Assembly (NCBI GenBank): GCA_963805505.1
Contig: CAWDUP010000004.1
Location: forward strand, 189,382-253,381
Reading direction: 5' to 3'
DNA from: an uncultured Actinomycetota bacterium
Lineage (GTDB): Bacteria; Actinomycetota; Actinomycetes; DATJPE01
Length of the DNA stretch: 64,000 nt
Numbering within the stretch: the first letter of the stretch is position 1; every line of letters begins with the position of its first letter. This document shows positions 8,623 to 28,550 of this stretch, piece after piece. The notes under the pieces are model-generated. The model saw nothing but the letters and a program-made list of their open reading frames with translations, searched no databases and was not told where the DNA came from. The position numbers and the translations under genes were made by a program.

Positions 8623-9428
8623 GCCCTGACCCACCACCGATCGCGCAAGGCGAACAGCACGACCACCGACACCGCCAGCATCAAAACGCCGAGTGCCAAC
8701 GCGGCGCCCGGGTCGGTCTCCAGGGACAGATAGACAGCCAGCGGCATCGTCTGGGTGCGACCCTGCAGGCTGCCGGCGAAGGTGATCGTCGCCCCGAACT
8801 CACCCAAGGCGCGGGCCCACGCCAGCAGGGTCCCGGCCGCAATTCCCGGGCCGATCAGGGGCAGCGTGACTCGGCGGAAGCGAGTCCATGGGCTGGCCCC
8901 GAGGACGGCTGCTGTCTCTTCGAACCGGGGATTTCGCTGCCGCAGCGCTCCCTCCACGGTGACCACGAGGAAGGGCAACGCCACGAACGTCTCGGCCACG
9001 ATCACGCCAGCAGTGCTGAACGGCAGGCTCAGCCCAGTCAGTGAGTAGAGCGGGCCGCCGAGCAATCCCCTGCGCCCGAATGCGGCCAGCAACGCCACTC
9101 CCCCGACCACTGGGGGGAGGACGAGGGGGACGGTCACCAGGGCCCGCCCCACGGACGCCCAGCGCCCGTGGGCGCGCGCAAGGACGACGGCCAGGGGAAC
9201 TCCAAGGATCAAGCATGCCGCGGTCGCGCAGGCGGAGCAGAAGATCGACAGCACCAGGGCATCGGTCACCACCGAGGAGGTGAACAAGGTCGCCGAGTCA
9301 CTCCAAGGAACCCGAACCAGCAGGGCAACCAGCGGCATCACCAGCAACCCCATGGCCAGTGCAGCGGGAACGAGCAGGATGCGTGGAGGGGCCGTTGCCA
9401 CGGCTGCCCGCGGGGTCGCCCGCCTCAT
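8619..9428 (-). CDS. modB: molybdate ABC transporter permease
   Basis: 269 aa, multi-TM, with a permease EAA-like loop (ALGEFGATITFAG). Confidence 0.9.
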   Translation of the reverse strand: MRRATPRAAVATAPPRILLVPAALAMGLLVMPLVALLVRVPWSDSATLFTSSVVTDALVLSIFCSACATAACLILGVPLAVVLARAHGRWASVGRALVTVPLVLPPVVGGVALLAAFGRRGLLGGPLYSLTGLSLPFSTAGVIVAETFVALPFLVVTVEGALRQRNPRFEETAAVLGASPWTRFRRVTLPLIGPGIAAGTLLAWARALGEFGATITFAGSLQGRTQTMPLAVYLSLETDPGAALALGVLMLAVSVVVLFALRDRWWVRA

Positions 9429-9438
9429 TCCGGCCTGC

Positions 9439-10224
9439 TCATGGAAGCTGGAAGCCGTACTTCTCGAGCACCGCTGCCCCGTCGGGAGACCGCACCAAGG
9501 CGATGAAGGCGGACGCGGCGCCGCCAGTGCCGGCCGAACCGGTCAGCTCGACGATCGGATAGTCGGTGGTGATCTGCTCCGGCTTGGGGAGGACCACCTC
9601 ATCCGTCGTGTCAGCGGCTGCGCGGGCATCCGTCACGTAGACCACGCCCACATCCGCCTCGTCCGCTGCGACCTTGGCCACCACCGACTTGACGTCCTGC
9701 TCGAGGGAGTCCGGCGCCGCCACCAGTCCAGCCACCTCGAAGGCATGCACGGCAGCCGCTCCACAGGGAACTTCCGGGGCGCACATGACGACGGTGCGCG
9801 CCGGATCGGCGAGATCACGTAAGCCGGTCACCCCGGCCGGGTTGCCTGGAGGCACCACCAGCGTGAGGGAGTTTCGCGCAAAGACAACCGGCTGACCGAC
9901 GGTTACCCCACCGTCCACGGCCTCCTGCATGTTGGTAGGGCTGGCCGTTGCGAGCACAGCTGCTGGGGCACCGTCGAGTGCCTGCCGCACGAGGCTGCTG
10001 CTGCCGCCGAACGAGAAGTCGACCACCGTCCCAGGATGTTCCGCCCGATAGACGTCGCCGAGCTCGCCGAAGGCCTCGGTCAGCGACGCCGCGGCCAGAA
10101 CCGTCAGGTGCGGTGGCTCAGCACGCCCCGATCCTGACGCTGCGCACGCCGACAGGGTTGCCGGCACCACCGCGATGGCTGCGAGGGCGCGCAGGAGCCG
10201 GACCGTCTTCTTGCGGTGGGTCAC
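9439..10224 (-). CDS. modA: molybdate-binding periplasmic lipoprotein
   Basis: Lipoprotein signal (LSAC) followed by a ModA fold (TVLAAASLTEAFGELG, FSFGGSS). Confidence 0.85.
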   Translation of the reverse strand: MTHRKKTVRLLRALAAIAVVPATLSACAASGSGRAEPPHLTVLAAASLTEAFGELGDVYRAEHPGTVVDFSFGGSSSLVRQALDGAPAAVLATASPTNMQEAVDGGVTVGQPVVFARNSLTLVVPPGNPAGVTGLRDLADPARTVVMCAPEVPCGAAAVHAFEVAGLVAAPDSLEQDVKSVVAKVAADEADVGVVYVTDARAAADTTDEVVLPKPEQITTDYPIVELTGSAGTGGAASAFIALVRSPDGAAVLEKYGFQLP

Positions 10225-10694: not shown

Positions 10695-11711
10695 ATGACC
10701 GAGACGCCAGATCGCAACCTCGCCCTCGAGCTGGTCCGGGTCACCGAGGCAGCGGCCATGGCCGCAGGTCGGTGGGTGGGGCGCGGCGACAAGCTCGGTG
10801 CCGATGGGGCGGCTGTCAACGCCATGCGGCAGCTGATCTCTTCGGTATCGATGAACGGGATCGTGGTGATCGGCGAGGGCGAGAAGGACGCAGCGCCCAT
10901 GTTGTTCAACGGGGAGCACGTCGGCGACGGCTCCGGTCCACCCTGCGATGTGGCCGTCGACCCGATCGACGGGACCACCCTGTGCGCCAAGGGCATGAGC
11001 AATGCCTTGGCCGTCATGGCCGTTGCCGAACGAGGCACGATGTTCGACCCGTCGGCGGTCTTCTACATGGACAAGCTGGTCACCGGCGCTGCTGCTGCCT
11101 CAACGGTGGACATCAACGCGCCTGTCGCAGACAACGTCCGCGCGGTCGCGAAGGCCAAGGGGGAGAGCACCGACGACGTGACCGTGTGTGTCCTCGACCG
11201 CCCGCGGCACGACGGGATCGTTAGCGAGATCCGCGCGACCGGAGCACGGATCAGGTTCATCAGCGACGGTGATGTGGCCGGAGCGATCATGGCGGCCCGC
11301 GACGGCACCGGGATCGACCTGCTCGTCGGAATCGGCGGTACGCCCGAGGGAATCATCGCGGCTTGCGCGATGAAATGCCTCGGCGGCGTGATCCAGGCCA
11401 AGCTGTGGCCGCGCGACGCAGACGAGCGCATCAAGGCTCTTGACGCCGGCCACGACCTGTCCCGCGTGCTCATGACCGAGGATCTGGTGACCGGGAAGGA
11501 CGTCTTCTTCGTTGCCACCGGCATCACCGACGGCGAGATGTTGCGAGGTGTCCGCTACCGCTCAGGCGGAGCCCAGACCCACTCCCTGGTGATGCGCTCA
11601 CGAAGCGGAACCATCCGGCTCATCGAGAGCGAACATCACCTCGACAAGCTCCGGCACTACGCCGCCGTGGACTTCGAGCACTCCGAGTCCGAGGCACGTG
11701 GCCATGGCTGA
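10695..11711 (+). CDS. glpX: class II fructose-1,6-bisphosphatase GlpX
   Basis: 338 aa with GlpX motifs ([35 protein letters not shown]). Confidence 0.95.
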
Positions 11712-13383
11712 CTTCGCGTACTCAGATCTGCTTCCGGTCGGCGACGACGAGACGCCGTACCGCCTCATCACCACCGAGGGCGTCTCCACGGTGGAAGCGG
11801 CCGGACGCAGATTCCTGTCCGTCGAACCGGAAGTGCTGCGGCTGCTGACCTTTGAGGCGATGCACGACATCTCGCATCTCCTACGGCCGGCGCACCTGGC
11901 TCAGCTTCGACGCATCCTGGACGATCCCGAGGCATCGCCCAACGACCGATTCGTGGCCCTTGACCTGCTCAAGAACGCCAACATCTCAGCCGGCGGCGTG
12001 CTGCCCATGTGCCAAGACACCGGGACCGCTGTCGTGATGGGCAAGAGGGGCCAGCACGTCCTGACCGAGGGTTCTGACGAGGCAGCCATCAGCCGCGGGG
12101 TGTTCGATGCCTACGCCCAGCTCAACCTTCGGTACTCCCAGATGGCGCCGTTGACGATGTGGGAAGAGCGCAACACCGGGACGAACCTCCCGGCGCAGGT
12201 CGAGATCTACGCGGACACGACTCCAGGGCACGAGGCCAGCTACACGTTGCTGTTCATGGCCAAGGGAGGTGGATCGGCCAACAAGTCCTTCCTGTTCCAG
12301 GAGACGAAGGCGGTGCTCAACCCCACCCGTTTGATGACCTACCTCGAGGAGCGCATCCGCGCCCTGGGAACCGCGGCATGCCCGCCCTACCACCTGGCCA
12401 TCGTGATCGGCGGTACGTCGGCTGAGTTCGCCTTGAAGACCGCGAAGTATGCCTCGGCCCACTACCTCGATCAGCTCCCCAAGGCGGGCTCCGAGGTCGG
12501 GCACGGCTTCCGGGACCACGAGCTCGAGGCCGAGGTTCTTGCCTTGACCCAGCGCCTCGGGATCGGCGCGCAGTTCGGCGGGAAGTACTTCTGCCACGAC
12601 GTACGCGTCGTTCGCCTTCCGCGCCATGGAGCATCGCTGCCCATCGCCATCGCGGTCTCGTGCTCGGCCGACCGCCAGGCGAAGGGCAAGATCACCCCGG
12701 AAGGGGTCTTTCTCGAGGCCCTCGAGCGCGAACCCGCTCAGTACTTGCCTGAGGTCACCGACGAGCACCTCGACGACGGACTCGGCGAAGCCGTACCCGT
12801 CGATCTGCATCGGCCGATGTCCGAGATTCGAGCTGAGCTGTCTCGCTATCCGGTGAAGACCCGGCTGTCGCTGAGTGGCCCGATGGTGGTGGCTCGCGAC
12901 ATCGCCCACGCCAAGATCCAGGAGCGGCTGGACGCTGGTGGGAGCATGCCCGACTACCTGCGCGACATGTGCGTCTACTACGCGGGTCCCGCGAAGACTC
13001 CCGAGGGCTATGCATCAGGTTCCTTCGGGCCGACGACGGCCGGCCGGATGGACTCCTACGTCGACTCCTTCCAACGCGCCGGTGGGTCGTTCGTCATGCT
13101 GGCCAAGGGGAATCGCTCGACCGCCGTCACGCAGGCCTGCCACGAGCACGGCGGGTTCTACCTCGGATCCATCGGTGGTCCAGCAGCCCGCTTGGCCCTC
13201 GACTGCATCCGCCGTGTCGAGGTCCTCGAATACCCAGAGCTCGGGATGGAAGCCATCTGGCAGATCGAGGTCGAGGACTTCCCCGCCTTCATCGTGGTCG
13301 ACGACAAGGGCAACGACTTCTTCACCGATCCTTCGCCCGCCCCGATCATCACCCATGTCCCGGTGGGTCCCCCGCAGCCCTGA
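11698..13383 (+). CDS. class I (Fe-S) fumarate hydratase, FumA/FumB type
   Basis: 561 aa; [20 protein letters not shown] and the overall layout fit class I fumarases. The start is GTG 11698 or ATG 11704. Confidence 0.9.
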
Positions 13384-13387
13384 CTCC

Positions 13388-14413
13388 TCACGTTGCGTCC
13401 GACCAAGTGAGGGCTATTGGCCACGCTTCCTCGGACGTAAGCCTCCGGGCCAGCCAGCGGTGACCAAGGCGCGTTCGACCTGGTCGAGGAAGGGTTCCGG
13501 ATCGGTGCGCAGCGCAAGGACAGGGACCCGGAGCACGGTACGGCCATCGAGGGTTACCTCGTTCTGGCGGAAGGCGTCCGGCAGGTGGGCAACGACATCC
13601 AGGTGCTGAACCCCGTCGATCTCCACAACTAGGCGGAAGTCGTCCCAGCAGACATCGAGGTAGACGCGCCCACTTGGGAGGCGAACCACGCGCTGGCGGG
13701 TTGGGGGTGGGAGTCCTCGGCGGCGACACATGCCGAGCGAAGTCAAGCTCCCCCAGGGACTGGGCTCCTTCGCGGACATCGGCGACGACGGCGCGCAACA
13801 GTCTCCGCCTCGGATGCCGCACCACGCGATCCAGCGCAGTCGAGATGGCCTCAGCAGTGGTGATCCGCTGCTGCACCGGTGCCACGATCAGCAATGCGGC
13901 CTCCCGGTCGGATCGCGCCCAAAGAGCCGCGAACAAAGCTGCAGGGGCAGGGCGCAACCGCGGCAGCGTGCTGACCGCGATGTCTTCTGGGCGAAGCCGC
14001 CGGGTCTCGTAGACCCGGACGCCGCGTGCTCCGCGCGGCCGACATGACTTCGGCGCGGCCACCTGGATCCGGTCGGAGCCGATGCCACGCAGGCCGTACG
14101 ACTCGAGCGCCGAAACACCTCCGAGCAACGCACCCGGGCCGACCTCGAGGACCGCCCGCCACCATTCGGTTTCAAGGCTTGGCCCCTGCGGGAGGATCAA
14201 GACAGTCTCAGGGCCGAGGCGCTTCCACCGGTCGGCGCGCACCTGTGCCGACACCTGCCAACGGGTCATGCCAGCGGCGTACAGCTGGCGCCGGTGAACG
14301 ACTCCGCCCTGATCCGCCGCCAACCGCTCGACCTCGGCCCGCCGGCGGATGCGGGCGGCAGCCGTCGCAGCCGTTGGCAGGGGACGCGCGGGGGCAAGCA
14401 CAGGCCTAGGCAT
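13388..14413 (-). pseudogene. DUF559 (endonuclease-like) / AbiEi-antitoxin-like family gene disrupted by a +1 frameshift
   Basis: The AbiEi-like N-terminal domain runs in frame 13388..14413 up to ...LGELDFAR. The DUF559 motif (MCRRRGLP...RVYLDVCWDDFRLVVEIDGVQH) continues in the overlapping ORF 13414..13779, offset by one extra nucleotide near 13732. Confidence 0.7.
13390..13443. repeat. copy A of a ~50-bp palindromic intergenic repeat (ttgcgtccgacc..ataggccac..tcggacgcaa family)
   Basis: Seen directly. It aligns with the copies at 14497-14555 (inverted) and 28048-28100, and lies between the fumA-type and DUF559 stops. Confidence 0.5.
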
Positions 14414-14496
14414 GACGCCACGCTCGAGTGGGCGAGCCCCGATCTGAACCGCCCGACGGCAACCTGAGGACGCACACCACCTGGGGACAACCTCTC

Positions 14497-14555
14497 GACT
14501 CCTTGCGTCCGAGCCAGCGTGGCCTATTGCGCACCTTGGGTCGGACGCAAAGGAT
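14497..14555. repeat. copy B (inverted) of the palindromic repeat, in the fumC 5-prime UTR
   Basis: ccttgcgtccgagccagcgtggcctattgcgcaccttgggtcggacgcaa; it ends 7 nt before the fumC RBS (AAGGA). Confidence 0.5.
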
Positions 14556-14561
14556 GACTAG

Positions 14562-15968
14562 ATGGCCGAGCAATCCTCGACACGGACCGAACGGGACTCG
14601 CTGGGTCCGGTGGAGGTCCCGGCTGACGCGCTGTGGCAGGCCCAGACCCAGCGTGCCGTCGACAACTTCCCGGTCAGCGGGCAGCCGGTCCCGTCAGCCA
14701 TCGTTCGCGCTCTTGCGCGGATCAAAGCTGCCGCCGCCACAGCGAACCTGCGACTGGGGGTCATCGACGAGGAGTCAGCCAAGGCGGTGCGAACGGCTGC
14801 CCTCGAAGTCGCCGACGGACTCCATGCCGACCAGTTCCCCGTCGATGTGTTCCAGACAGGAAGCGGCACGTCGACGAACATGAACGTCAACGAGGTGGTC
14901 GCGACTCTCGCGGGTCGGCTGGTCGGCCGCTCGATCCACCCCAACAACGTGGTCAACGCCAGCCAGTCCAGCAACGACACGTTCCCCACGGCCGTGCACG
15001 TGGCCGTGGCCGCGACCGTGGCCGACGAGCTCGTCCCTGCACTGGACGCCCTGGCCGCGCGACTTCGGGAGCGCGCCGACGAGTACGTCGATCTGGTCAA
15101 GGCCGGTCGCACCCACCTCATGGATGCCACGCCGATCACCTTCGGTCAGGAGCTCGGCGCCTGGGCGAGCCAGGTCGAGCTGGGCCGTGATCGAATCCTC
15201 GGCTCGCTCCCGCGACTGTGCTCGCTGCCCCTGGGCGGCACTGCTGTCGGCTCCGGGCTGAACGCGCCCGAGGGCTTCGCAGCTGCCGTGATCGCCGAGC
15301 TGGCGGAGGCGTACGGGCTTCCGCTGGTCGAAGCCACCGACCACTTCGAAGCGCAGGCGAGTCGAGACTCACTCGTGGAGATGTCTGGGCAGGTGCGCGT
15401 TGTGGCTGTGTCGCTCACCAAGATCTGCAACGACCTGAGGTGGCTCGGTTCTGGACCAGCGACCGGGCTGCACGAGATCCAGCTGGCAGATCTCCAACCC
15501 GGGTCATCGATCATGCCGGGCAAGGTCAATCCCGTGGTGCCGGAGGCGGTCCTCCAGGTGTGTACCCAGGTGGTCGGCAACGATGCCGCAGTCGCGTGGG
15601 CTGGCGCCTCCGGGTCCTTCCAGCTCAACGTGCAGATCCCGGTCATGGCCCGCAACCTCATGGAGTCGGCTCAGTTGCTCGCGTCGGCCGTACGGCTGCT
15701 GCAGGGCGCCATCTCCACGCTGCGGGCCAACGAGCAGGTGATGCGCTCCTACGCGGAGGCTTCCTCCGCGGTCGTGACCGCGCTCAACCGGCTGTTGGGC
15801 TATGACCTGGCAGCCGAGATCGCCAAACAGGCCCAGGTCGAACGGCGCGCCGTTCGCGACATCATCGTCGAGCGCGGACTGATCGCCGACGGTACGGTCA
15901 GCGAGGCCGAGGTGGATGCCGCACTCGATGTCCTTGCCATGACCGGCGCCAAACGCAACAACGGGTGA
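14562..15968 (+). CDS. fumC: class II fumarate hydratase
   Basis: 468 aa with the lyase signature [11 protein letters not shown], and it aligns along its length with FumC/aspartase-family proteins. Confidence 0.95.
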
Positions 15969-18945: not shown

Positions 18946-19084
18946 CGCCCGACCTTAGTCGGTGGACATCTGCCCCGCCCCTCACTCTGGGGGGTGAGAC
19001 GGGAGCTGGACCCCTTCCCCTCTCGCGTCGCCAGGTGTATACCGAAGACGTTCAGCGCCCTGAACACTACGGGAGAGGGGATCA

Positions 19085-24030: not shown

Positions 24031-24483
24031 TCAACCGCGAAGAACCACCACGGGGCAGTCGGCATGCCGCACGACCTGCTCCGAGGTCGAGCCCAACAGC
24101 AAGCCCGCGAAACCTCCTCGGCCGCGAGAGGACACCACCAACAGGTCCGCGCCGGCCGAAGCGCTGATCAGGGTCGACGCGGCGGCCCCGTGCACCACAT
24201 GCAGCACGACCTCGACCCCGTCGTCGGAGTCACCGTCCCGAGCGACGGCTTCGGCCAGCTCAGCTTCGACCGCGGCCTGGTAGTCGTCCACCGAAGCCAC
24301 CACGCCATGGGGGACGTCCGCCGGGCGCGGCGTCTTCGTCAGCGACCAAGCGCGTAGGACATGCAGCGGCCACCCGCGCAGCCTCGCCTCTTCCCTACCG
24401 AAGGCGAGAGCCCGATCGGCCGAGGGCGATCCGTCGTGGCCCACCAGCACTCCGCCGTCGATGACCACGTCGTCGTCACGCAT
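24031..24483 (-). CDS. universal stress protein (UspA family)
   Basis: VLVGHDGSPSADRALAF...LLVVSSRGRGGFAGLLLGSTSEQVVRHADCPVVVL. Confidence 0.8.
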   Translation of the reverse strand: MRDDDVVIDGGVLVGHDGSPSADRALAFGREEARLRGWPLHVLRAWSLTKTPRPADVPHGVVASVDDYQAAVEAELAEAVARDGDSDDGVEVVLHVVHGAAASTLISASAGADLLVVSSRGRGGFAGLLLGSTSEQVVRHADCPVVVLRG

Positions 24484-24546
24484 GTCCTTGCCCCTGGAGT
24501 CCCTGCCCATGCAGCCATTCAACTCGACGGGAGTCGGAACGGACAG

Positions 24547-28047: not shown

Positions 28048-28100
28048 TGACCTTGCGTCCGACCAAGTGCGCCGTATAGGCCACCATCGGTCGGACGCAA
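28048..28100. repeat. copy C of the palindromic repeat (perfect 12-bp arms ttgcgtccgacc / ggtcggacgcaa, 24-nt spacer)
   Basis: Seen directly, between the nitroreductase stop and the arfB start. Confidence 0.5.
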
Positions 28101-28121
28101 CGGATCCGGCATGCTTTTCCC

Positions 28122-28550
28122 GTGCCGGGTCCGTTGCGCGTCCGTTCGGCGGTGATTCCCGAAGGCGAGCTGTCATGGCGCTTCTCGAGATCCTCGGGAC
28201 CGGGTGGGCAAAGCGTGAACACCACGGACTCGCGGGTTGAGCTCTCCTACGATCTGGCGGCGTCCTCGGCATTCGGCCCCTCACTCAAGGGTCGGGCTCT
28301 GGAGCGCTTGGCTGGTCGCCTTGTCGACGGCACGATCACCGTGACGGCATCCGAGCACCGCAGCCAGTTGCAGAACCGGGAGGCCGCCGAGCGCCGACTG
28401 GTCTCCCTGCTGCTCGAAGCCACGGCTCCGCCTCCCCGTCGCCGCCGTCCCACCAAGCCCTCCAAGGCGTCGACCGAGCGCCGGATCGCGAGCAAGAAGA
28501 AGCGCGGAGAGACCAAACGCCTTCGACGCAGCACCACCGACGGTCAGTAA
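28122..28550 (+). CDS. arfB: alternative ribosome-rescue factor ArfB (peptidyl-tRNA hydrolase, GGQ)
   Basis: GPGGQSVNTTDSRVEL GGQ motif and a basic C-terminal tail (KKKRGETKRLRR). GTG start. Confidence 0.85.
   Translation: MPGPLRVRSAVIPEGELSWRFSRSSGPGGQSVNTTDSRVELSYDLAASSAFGPSLKGRALERLAGRLVDGTITVTASEHRSQLQNREAAERRLVSLLLEATAPPPRRRRPTKPSKASTERRIASKKKRGETKRLRRSTTDGQ

What the first reader, a model, noticed from the sequence alone, without database searches (positions are those of the whole stretch)
13388..14555. Frameshifted DUF559/AbiEi-like gene bracketed by inverted palindromic repeats, inserted between the class I and class II fumarase genes
The only thing separating the class I fumarase gene from fumC is a 1.17-kb unit. 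It is bounded on both sides by copies of the same ~50-bp palindromic element in opposite orientation. Its single gene encodes an AbiEi-antitoxin-like N-terminal domain plus a DUF559 endonuclease-like C-terminal domain, and it is broken by one extra nucleotide near 13732 (...GELDFAR | MCRRRGLP...). In mycobacteria, DUF559 proteins ride on REP13E12-type repeats, which are thought to be mobile and to act as integration sites. This looks like a small decaying mobile or selfish element of that kind, and it may be an unrecorded family in this lineage.
Basis: partly seen in the sequence, partly recalled or inferred. Interest (0 to 1): 0.6.

Follow-up and report, generated by a model that had tools for sequence, protein, structure and literature searches.

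The report
Palindrome-bracketed AbiEi–nuclease gene cassette
The broken gene between the two fumarase genes belongs to a large, apparently undescribed class of actinobacterial cassettes, in which a DNA-binding/nuclease fusion gene is bracketed on both sides by its own matching ~48-bp palindromes; the cassette is an old resident of this site, not a recent insertion.

Summary
A minus-strand gene (13414-14413) encodes an AbiEi-like N-terminal part and a DUF559/Vsr-like nuclease C-terminal part. One extra base at ~13732 breaks the frame. 48-bp palindromes sit at 13393-13440 and 14503-14550, and a third, solo copy lies at 28053-28100.

A relative with 95% protein identity carries the gene intact at the same site, with the same palindromes. 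39 of 84 homologous loci share the fumarase neighbourhood, so this is an old resident. dN/dS is 0.08 downstream of the break, so the frameshift is very recent or a sequencing error. Nothing supports the REP13E12 link.

The main result is that the flanks match each other in 75 of 82 homologous loci across at least six actinobacterial orders. The palindromes differ between lineages, and between paralogues within one genome. They are about 47-fold enriched next to the gene and rare elsewhere. Their geometry matches known AbiEi operators (two 23-bp inverted repeats). In Kribbella, sequence divergence of the cassette starts and ends at the palindromes.

Most likely the palindromes are the protein's own binding sites and delimit a self-contained nuclease cassette that is exchanged as a block. 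Whether it is selfish and mobile or a fused toxin-antitoxin/defence module remains open.

The parts
13393..13440 (.). 3'-side palindrome (TTGCGTCCGA-N28-TCGGACGTAA). It lies between the convergent ends of fumA and the cassette gene, and encodes the gene's last 8 codons plus the TAG stop.
   Evidence: The same position in L006 and L001.
13414..13731 (-). C-terminal reading frame: the DUF559 / Vsr-like PD-(D/E)xK nuclease domain (MCRRRGLP...GQ*). All family-invariant residues are present (D253, E264, H270, D279, N284 of the repaired protein).
13732..13732 (-). The one extra nucleotide (+1 frameshift), placeable within about 13731-13735. It is absent from L006, L001 and the other homologues examined.
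13733..14413 (-). N-terminal reading frame (227 aa): a full-length AbiEi-like module, with a winged helix-turn-helix followed by an AbiEi C-terminal-type domain.
13388..14413 (-). The 341-aa open frame, as called in public records (P0001). It comprises the 227 correct residues plus 114 out-of-frame residues.
14481..14490 (-). Conserved upstream box TTGTCCCCAG (family consensus YYNTCCACAGG), just inside the upstream palindrome on the gene side.
   Evidence: present in 70 of 84 loci against 3.3 expected
14503..14550 (.). 5'-side palindrome (TTGCGTCCGA-N28-TCGGACGCAA). It lies in the divergent spacer and ends 11 nt before the fumC start codon.
28053..28100 (.). Solo copy of the same palindrome. 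It lies between an F420H2-dependent quinone reductase gene and an RF-1-domain gene. No DUF559 gene is nearby.
11698..13383 (+). Class I fumarase gene (left neighbour; context only).
14562..15968 (+). Class II fumarase gene fumC (right neighbour; context only).

Best explanation
The unit is one member, here frame-broken, of a widespread actinobacterial cassette type.

Composition. A single gene encodes a complete AbiEi-type DNA-binding module (winged helix plus C-terminal domain) fused to a Vsr/DUF559 nuclease domain. The gene is bracketed by two copies of a ~44-50-bp palindrome.

Inferred steps.
- The palindromes are the protein's own binding sites, with one monomer per ~20-23-bp arm, as known AbiEi proteins bind pairs of 23-bp inverted repeats.
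- The upstream site probably serves for autoregulation.
- The two sites together delimit the block that is inherited, duplicated and occasionally swapped as a whole.
- I favour a selfish, largely domesticated nuclease cassette: a site-specific nuclease tethered to the ends of its own gene. This would be functionally analogous to a REP-associated transposase or a homing endonuclease, with rare solo palindromes as by-products.

Shown: the architecture, the co-variation between palindromes and gene, the positional conservation and the block-wise replacement. Not shown: DNA binding, cleavage and any mobility mechanism.

In this window the copy carries a +1 frameshift that is either very recent or an assembly error.
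For: - Architecture. A motif-agnostic comparison of upstream and downstream flanks beats all 20 same-locus controls in 75 of 82 loci; the median score is 32 against 14.5. CGTC-headed hairpins occur at 1.79 per kb next to the gene against 0.038 per kb elsewhere.
- Breadth. Distant subfamilies in Tsukamurella and Pseudonocardia are also bracketed, by unrelated palindromes.
- Cognate pairing. Palindrome head type follows the protein clade. Paralogues in one genome carry different palindromes, each matched on both flanks. Arm identity between the two flanks within a locus is 0.77, against 0.53 between orthologous loci.
- Arm conservation. CGTC at positions 1-4 is fixed by the selection criterion. 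Independently of it, G at position 14, about one helical turn further on, is conserved in 155 of 172 arms.
- Site geometry. AbiEi binds two 23-bp inverted repeats separated by 3 bp, 49 bp in total (PMC7319586).
- Block exchange. In Kribbella L005 against L010 the flanks are 0.79-0.95 identical and the cassette 0.48-0.71, with breaks at the two palindromes. Between the window and L006 the cassette dS is 0.21, against 0.43 for fumA and 0.63 for fumC.
- Purifying selection. 80 of 84 copies are intact.
Against: - No experiment and no direct evidence shows binding or cleavage.
- Mobility is rare at best. Twenty contexts are each shared by several genomes. No identical multi-copy sets and no target duplications were seen. 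No clean empty site was found among close relatives. The family is absent from plasmids and phages.
- Solo palindromes are few, about 0.01 per kb, unlike REP/RAYT systems.
- Block replacement could result from ordinary homologous recombination in the conserved flanks.
- Co-variation of palindrome and protein is confounded with host phylogeny, except in the paralogue and Kribbella cases.
- A pure autoregulation reading explains the upstream site equally well.
Confidence: 0.45

Rival explanations
1. A fused, autoregulated AbiE-like toxin-antitoxin or abortive-infection module with no mobility function. The AbiEi part represses its own promoter through the upstream palindrome and restrains the fused nuclease, which acts as the 'toxin'. 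The downstream palindrome is a second operator (looping or roadblock) or a terminator. Diversity at the locus reflects the diversifying selection typical of defence genes.
For: - The AbiEi fold covers the whole module.
- AbiEi and Rv2827c are known to autoregulate through pairs of 23-bp inverted repeats.
- The gene is chromosomal, positionally stable and under purifying selection.
- Allele classes at one locus in Kribbella resemble variable defence loci.
Against: - Known AbiEi operators overlap the promoter and lie only upstream. Here a second cognate copy sits at the 3' end in most loci and co-varies with the first.
- Solo copies and clusters exist.
- A second gene (SNase/Excalibur) is bracketed by the same palindromes in L001.
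- No AbiEii-type partner is present.
- PADLOC has no model of the fusion as a defence system; only the AbiEi part matches.
Confidence: 0.33
2. One reading: a small, decaying mobile element of the REP13E12 kind that recently inserted between fumA and fumC, with the palindromes as its terminal inverted repeats.
For: - The discrete unit has matching ends.
- The frame is broken.
- fumA and fumC are directly adjacent in more distant actinobacteria.
Against: - The same cassette sits at the same site in L006 (intact), in L001 and in many Propionibacteriales.
- dN/dS is 0.13.
- Only 4 of 84 copies are disrupted.
- No HNH or DUF222 similarity was found.
- The relative orientation of the two palindromes is not conserved.
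- No multi-copy identical elements were seen.
Confidence: 0.05
3. Ordinary intergenic palindromes (REP-like elements or factor-independent terminators) that happen to flank an ancestral gene.
For: - A solo copy lies at 28053-28100.
- The left copy sits between convergent gene ends, where a bidirectional terminator would be expected.
- The hairpins are stable.
Against: - About 47-fold enrichment beside the gene.
- Flank-to-flank matching in 75 of 82 loci.
- Paralogue-specific palindromes within one genome.
- The right copy lies between divergent genes, where no terminator is needed.
- No U-tract terminators were found.
- No Rfam family matched.
Confidence: 0.03
4. The palindromes are sites for a host site-specific recombinase (as in Xer/pdif modules or integron attC), and the gene is merely cargo of a recombinase-driven cassette.
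For: - Cassette-like bracketing.
- An array-like arrangement in L001: palindrome, SNase gene, palindrome, the AbiEi-nuclease gene, palindrome.
- Block replacement with breakpoints at the palindromes.
- DUF559 CDSs are enriched among predicted inversion targets (PMC9881135).
Against: - Paralogues in one genome carry different palindromes. A host recombinase would need one site type.
- The palindromes co-vary with the cassette's own protein.
- No integrase or recombinase gene lies next to the cassettes.
- Gene orientation relative to fumC is constant across loci.
Confidence: 0.07

Closest known systems
AbiEi antitoxins of type IV AbiE toxin-antitoxin systems (S. agalactiae AbiEi, PDB 6y8q; M. 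tuberculosis Rv2827c, PDB 1zel)
   Different: There is no AbiEii nucleotidyltransferase partner; a Vsr/DUF559 nuclease domain is fused instead. The sites lie on both sides of the gene rather than only over the promoter, and solo copies exist.
REP / RAYT systems (REPtrons; REPIN-RAYT)
   Same: A single, mostly vertically inherited gene for a DNA-processing enzyme is flanked by lineage-specific palindromes. Different gene/palindrome pairs coexist in one genome. Some dispersed copies and clusters exist.
   Different: The enzyme is an AbiEi plus PD-(D/E)xK fusion, not an HUH Y1 transposase. The palindromes are twice as long, with both arms symmetric. Dispersed copies are rare (~0.01 per kb) rather than hundreds per genome. 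The relative orientation of the flanking copies is not fixed.
DUF559 / Vsr-like nucleases, including the homing endonuclease I-Bth0305I (PDB 3r3p), Vsr (1cw0) and NGO0050 (3hrl)
   Different: The gene is not in an intron or intein. It has a different DNA-binding module, and no T:G mismatch-repair context (no adjacent cytosine methyltransferase).
CGTC-tagged REPs (Di Nocera et al. 2013, PMC3733652)
   Same: Palindromic repeats with a conserved CGTC at the end, reported to lack a dedicated enzyme.
   Different: Those have an unpaired CGTC at one end only, stems of 8-9 bp and loops of 4-5 nt. They are high-copy, and Actinobacteria are not among the five phyla reported. Here CGTC is paired, present on both arms, and the element is ~48 bp. 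The resemblance is probably superficial.
REP13E12 repeats of M. tuberculosis
   Different: No sequence or domain similarity was found. By my knowledge the 13E12 ORFs are DUF222/HNH proteins. REP13E12 is a multi-copy ~1.4-kb repeat carrying a prophage attachment site, not a palindrome-bracketed single gene.

Membership tests
DUF559 (PF04480) / Vsr-like PD-(D/E)xK nuclease | Match to the family profile at or above the curated cut-off | tested here: met
   C-terminal frame: 24.3 bits against a cut-off of 20.6, E=3e-5. Weak PDB sequence hit to 3hrl.
DUF559 (PF04480) / Vsr-like PD-(D/E)xK nuclease | Vsr-like fold | tested here: met
DUF559 (PF04480) / Vsr-like PD-(D/E)xK nuclease | Conserved catalytic acidic/histidine residues | tested here: met
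   D253, E264, H270 and D279 are invariant in the family alignment and present in the window copy. That they are the catalytic residues is assumed from the domain family, not mapped here.
DUF559 (PF04480) / Vsr-like PD-(D/E)xK nuclease | Nuclease activity | not testable with these tools
   Needs biochemistry.
AbiEi antitoxin / type IV AbiE system | Two-domain AbiEi fold (winged helix plus C-terminal domain) | tested here: met
AbiEi antitoxin / type IV AbiE system | Pfam AbiEi_4 at the gathering score | tested here: not met
   18.4 bits against a cut-off of 25 for the window's N-terminal frame.
AbiEi antitoxin / type IV AbiE system | Adjacent AbiEii (DUF1814) nucleotidyltransferase toxin gene | tested here: not met
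   The neighbours are fumA and fumC in the window. No NTase gene is seen in L001-L005.
AbiEi antitoxin / type IV AbiE system | Binding to paired ~23-bp inverted repeats at its own gene | not testable with these tools
   The geometry fits (44-50-bp palindromes; against PMC7319586), but binding is untested.
REP / RAYT (REPtron) | Gene flanked by the genome's palindromic repeats | tested here: met
REP / RAYT (REPtron) | Encoded protein is an HUH Y1 (IS200-like) transposase | tested here: not met
REP / RAYT (REPtron) | Repeats dispersed in high copy number | tested here: not met
   About 14 cognate solos in 1.47 Mb of flanking sequence, and one in this 64-kb window. Whole genomes could not be counted.
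REP13E12 | Homology to 13E12 ORFs (DUF222/HNH, by my knowledge) | tested here: not met
   No such Pfam hit at E<=0.1.
REP13E12 | Multi-copy ~1.4-kb repeat within one genome | not testable with these tools
   Only 64 kb of the source genome is available, and it holds one copy of the gene.
Insertion sequence / transposon | Terminal repeats plus target-site duplication plus near-identical copies | tested here: inconclusive
   Matching palindromes are present at both ends. No duplication is evident, and no identical copies were seen. The empty fumA-fumC sites found are too divergent to define the ends.
CGTC-tagged REPs | Unpaired CGTC at one end, 8-9-bp stem, 4-5-nt loop, high copy number | tested here: not met
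   CGTC is paired and on both arms, the arms reach ~20 bp, the element is ~48 bp and the copy number is low.

The most novel reading that the evidence does not exclude
Palindrome-bracketed AbiEi-Vsr nuclease cassettes are a new class of selfish genetic element in Actinomycetota. The fusion protein recognises the ~20-bp arms of its own flanking palindromes and cuts there. This drives block-wise replacement (homing-like) of the cassette at fixed chromosomal sites and occasional seeding of solo palindromes. It would be a functional analogue of REP-RAYT systems built on a restriction-endonuclease-fold enzyme, and a natural source of long-site, re-targetable nucleases.
Probability: 0.3. Interest if true: 0.85.

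Novelty: new variant of a known kind. Interest (0 to 1): 0.65.

Why it matters
AbiEi_4/AbiEi_1-DUF559 fusions form a very large family that carries only uninformative automatic names such as 'very-short-patch-repair endonuclease' or 'DUF559 domain-containing protein'. The family profile finds 767 clusters (at 50% identity) at E<=1e-30 and 6,492 at E<=1e-10.

- **A testable hypothesis.** Each gene travels with two copies of a cognate ~48-bp palindrome that co-varies with it. This suggests protein-site pairs that can be tested directly by EMSA, cleavage assays and swaps between paralogues.
- **A possible explanation of an earlier statistic.** It may explain why DUF559 genes were flagged as enriched near inverted repeats in a screen for programmed inversions.
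- **If the cassettes are selfish.** They would extend the REP/RAYT idea to a different enzyme class and phylum.
- **If they are fused toxin-antitoxin or defence modules.** They would show a new regulatory architecture for AbiE-like systems.
- **For this window.** The public 341-aa protein call is a frameshift chimera and should be treated as a pseudogene or a sequencing error.

Tried and rejected
- **Rfam.** At gathering and at permissive thresholds there is no family for the palindromes.
- **Promoter/terminator scan.** Nothing was found in 13300-14650.
- **A fourth palindrome near 19000.** This hit from a loose two-mismatch scan is a false positive.
- **Plasmid and phage collections.** There is no real presence: two unverified 'Bacteriophage sp.' contigs and one Tsukamurella record labelled a plasmid that carries pur genes.
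- **Source contig.** Looking up the frameshifted ORF P0001 found no record. P0139 was likewise not on record.
- **Empty site for a solo palindrome.** I compared L001:123-170 with the window. The window has a universal-stress-protein-like gene (my reading of the ORF) there instead, so this was uninformative.
- **Crude six-frame split-ORF test for assembly indels.** It was too noisy in this high-GC DNA. I replaced it with a GC3-filtered test, in which 14 of 14 other genes are unbroken.
- **TCCACAG box as a -35 element.** No -10 element lies at a fixed distance, so this is rejected.
- **Specificity-determining residues.** Columns that separate palindrome classes exist, mostly basic/His positions in the AbiEi C-terminal-type region. 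They are fully confounded with phylogeny, so no conclusion is drawn.
- **Programmed inversion.** The gene's orientation relative to fumC is constant in all loci.
- **Programmed frameshift.** Every relative has a single frame.
Full report
**1. What is in the window**

Between the class I fumarase gene (11698-13383, +) and fumC (14562-15968, +) lies one minus-strand gene.
- The frame from 14413 down to 13733 encodes 227 residues ending GELDFAR.
- The frame from 13731 down to 13414 encodes MCRRRGLPPP...RKRGQ*.
- Pfam places DUF559 on the second part (24.3 bits against a cut-off of 20.6).
- Pfam gives a sub-threshold AbiEi_4 match on the first part (18.4 bits against 25).

The break is a single extra base. 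The 95%-identical relative L006 reads GCTC-GCCTATG where the window reads GCTCGGCATGTG. L001, at 63-65% identity, reads ...GELDFARLCRRRGLP... in one frame.

Two 48-nt palindromes (TTGCGTCCGA-N28-TCGGACGCAA) lie at 13393-13440 and 14503-14550.
- The left one supplies the gene's last eight codons and its stop codon.
- The right one ends 11 nt before the fumC start codon.
- A profile of the element, searched with all filters off, finds exactly three copies in the 64-kb window. The third is a solo copy at 28051-28102, between an F420H2-dependent quinone reductase gene and an RF-1-domain gene.

**2. Relatives carry the same cassette at the same place**

A search of 5.8 billion proteins gave 904 relatives at E<=1e-5, nearly all 300-330 aa. 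The only sequence matching the window exactly is the 341-aa frameshift read-through (P0001).

- The 65%-identical P0004 lies between fumC and fumA in an ENA MAG. It is intact, with palindromes of the same type at both ends. An extra SNase/Excalibur gene is bracketed by a further palindrome.
- A scan of one genome per GTDB species returned 80 loci. L006 (MFD05442.bin.1.398) has the intact gene, both palindromes and the same neighbours.
- In all, 39 of 84 non-redundant loci share the fumarase neighbourhood. They do so either as fumC|gene|fumA or, in Kribbella, as fumA..fumC..gene. The remaining loci fall into 19 other contexts, several of which are each shared by more than one genome.
- An unbiased sample of 80 metagenomic fumA loci (FumA 71-81% identical) contains the gene only once. 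Twelve loci have fumA followed by fumC, mostly with 24-333-nt spacers and no such palindrome in any of them.

The cassette was therefore inserted between the two fumarase genes long ago and has since been inherited in place.

**3. The flanking palindromes belong to the gene**

This was the unexpected result.
- In Kribbella, Antricoccus and Phytoactinopolyspora the homologue is flanked by palindromes that match each other but differ from those of the window.
- A comparison that assumes no motif scores the upstream against the downstream flank above all 20 same-locus controls in 75 of 82 loci. The median score is 32 against 14.5.
- Hairpins with a CGTC head occur 107 times in the 59.6 kb adjoining the genes. 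They occur 56 times in the other 1,468 kb, and most of those 56 are unrelated hairpins in coding sequence. About 14 are true cognate solos, several within 700 nt of the gene.
- Head type follows the protein clade: CGTCCGAC, CGTCCGAAG, CGTCCTGCA, CGTCATACGA, CGTCATAAGA, CGTCATCAC and others.
- Paralogues within one genome carry different palindromes, each matched on both flanks. This holds in four genomes.
- Within a locus the arms of the two palindromes are 0.77 identical beyond CGTC. Between orthologous fumarase-context loci the figure is 0.53.
- CGTC at positions 1-4 is fixed by the selection criterion. G at position 14, which was not selected for, is conserved in 155 of 172 arms.
- The relative orientation of the two copies is not conserved.
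- The 3' copy starts 0-40 nt after the conserved GW motif and often provides the stop codon.
- Distant subfamilies are bracketed too, by unrelated palindromes of 60-78 nt. Examples are Tsukamurella (AbiEi_1 plus MTES_1575/DUF559, between purC and purB) and Pseudonocardia.
- A further conserved box, YYNTCCACAGG, lies 9-16 nt inside the upstream palindrome, on the gene's strand, in 70 of 84 loci against 3.3 expected. It does not occur downstream of the gene.

**4. The protein**

- An AlphaFold model of P0004 has pLDDT 92.8.
- For the C-terminal domain it finds DUF559 3hrl (7.1), the I-Bth0305I homing-endonuclease catalytic domain (6.6) and Vsr (6.0).
- PADLOC AbiEi models match residues 4-176 at E=5.5e-17.
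- The family-invariant residues of the nuclease domain (D253, E264, H270, D279, N284) are all present in the window copy.
- The family is large: 767 clusters at E<=1e-30 and 6,492 at E<=1e-10 among 1.84 billion representatives.
- It is essentially absent from plasmid and phage collections.

**5. How it most likely works**

AbiEi and Rv2827c are known to bind pairs of 23-bp inverted repeats at their own genes, one monomer per repeat, giving 49 bp in all for AbiEi (PMC7319586). The palindromes here have that geometry.

Taken with the co-variation, the simplest reading is that they are the binding sites of the encoded protein. This is inferred, not shown. The upstream site would then serve for autoregulation.

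The second site at the 3' end, the solo copies and the L001 array are not expected of a plain autoregulator. Two further observations point to block behaviour.
- In Kribbella L005 against L010 the flanks are 0.79-0.95 identical and the cassette 0.48-0.71. The breaks fall at the upstream palindrome and just after the downstream one. The proteins are 56% identical although fumC dS is only 0.245. Kribbella carries at least four such allele classes, each with its own palindrome subtype.
- Conversely, the window and L006 cassettes are younger than their flanks. Cassette dS is 0.21, against 0.43 for fumA and 0.63 for fumC. Third-position identity is 0.83-0.86, against 0.60-0.78 for the neighbours. 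The drop on the fumC side falls at the upstream palindrome.

I therefore favour a self-contained nuclease cassette delimited by its own recognition sites, which is selfish or domesticated. The fused toxin-antitoxin/defence reading is a close rival. Binding, cleavage and any transfer mechanism remain untested.

**6. The frameshift**

- Only 3 of the 83 other loci carry disrupting mutations, all nonsense codons (L016, L036, L073).
- Between the window (repaired) and L006, dN/dS is 0.13 overall and 0.08 in the part downstream of the break.
- Fourteen other genes in the 21 kb shared with L006 are unbroken.

The break is therefore either a very recent inactivation or a rare consensus error. Only the reads can decide.

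**7. Comparison with known systems and novelty**

The element works most like an AbiEi regulator fused to a Vsr-type nuclease. In layout it recalls REP-RAYT systems, but it fails their defining tests: the enzyme is not HUH and the repeats are not high-copy.
- It is not a CGTC-tagged REP in the sense of Di Nocera et al..
- Nothing links it to REP13E12.
- I found no description of the architecture. The nearest hint is that 'DUF559 domain-containing protein' was statistically enriched among inverted-repeat-based predictions of programmed inversions (PMC9881135).

I rate it a new variant of a known kind.

Noticed in passing
window 14481-14490 (minus strand); homologous position in 70 of 84 loci: A conserved box YYNTCCACAGG lies 9-16 nt inside the upstream palindrome. 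TTGTCCACA equals the actinobacterial DnaA-box consensus as I remember it. In some loci the box is doubled about 27 nt apart. It is absent next to solo palindromes and in the distant Tsukamurella cassette. Its role is unknown.
   Followed up: partly
L001 8928-9842: In the 63-65%-identical relative a secreted SNase/Excalibur nuclease gene (9109-9765) sits between two further copies of the same palindrome. This gives an array: palindrome, gene, palindrome, the AbiEi-nuclease gene, palindrome.
   Followed up: partly
window 13388-14560 compared with L006: The cassette is less diverged at silent sites than its neighbours. dS is 0.21, against 0.43 for fumA and 0.63 for fumC. Identity drops at the upstream palindrome, which suggests recent exchange of the block between lineages.
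   Followed up: yes
L005 7794-8969 compared with L010 and other Kribbella loci: Kribbella species with closely similar flanks carry several deeply diverged cassette 'alleles' (56-97% protein identity). Each has its own palindrome subtype. For the pair examined in detail (L005 against L010) the divergence starts and ends at the palindromes.
   Followed up: yes
window 13388-14413: The public protein record for this gene (P0001, 341 aa) is the frameshift read-through: 227 correct residues followed by 114 out-of-frame residues.
   Followed up: yes
window 28101-28135: Directly after the solo palindrome lies a second, unrelated GC-rich hairpin (GGATCCGGCATGC TTTTCCC GTGCCGGGTCC), just before the RF-1-domain gene.
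   Followed up: no
window 24031-24522 compared with L001 103-181: Where L001 has a perfect 54-nt solo palindrome between the Rv1265-like gene and the HlyIII gene, the window has a 163-aa ORF that I read as universal-stress-protein-like. This intergenic site is variable between the two lineages.
   Followed up: partly
L016, L036, L073: Three other family members carry single nonsense codons, two of them Trp to stop. Two are in cultured isolates (Kribbella sp. NPDC058245 and Nocardioides currus). Occasional real inactivation of these genes therefore does occur.
   Followed up: partly
window 11698-11711: The glpX-type FBPase ORF (10695-11711) and the called GTG start of the class I fumarase overlap by 14 nt. 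The true fumarase start may lie slightly downstream.
   Followed up: no
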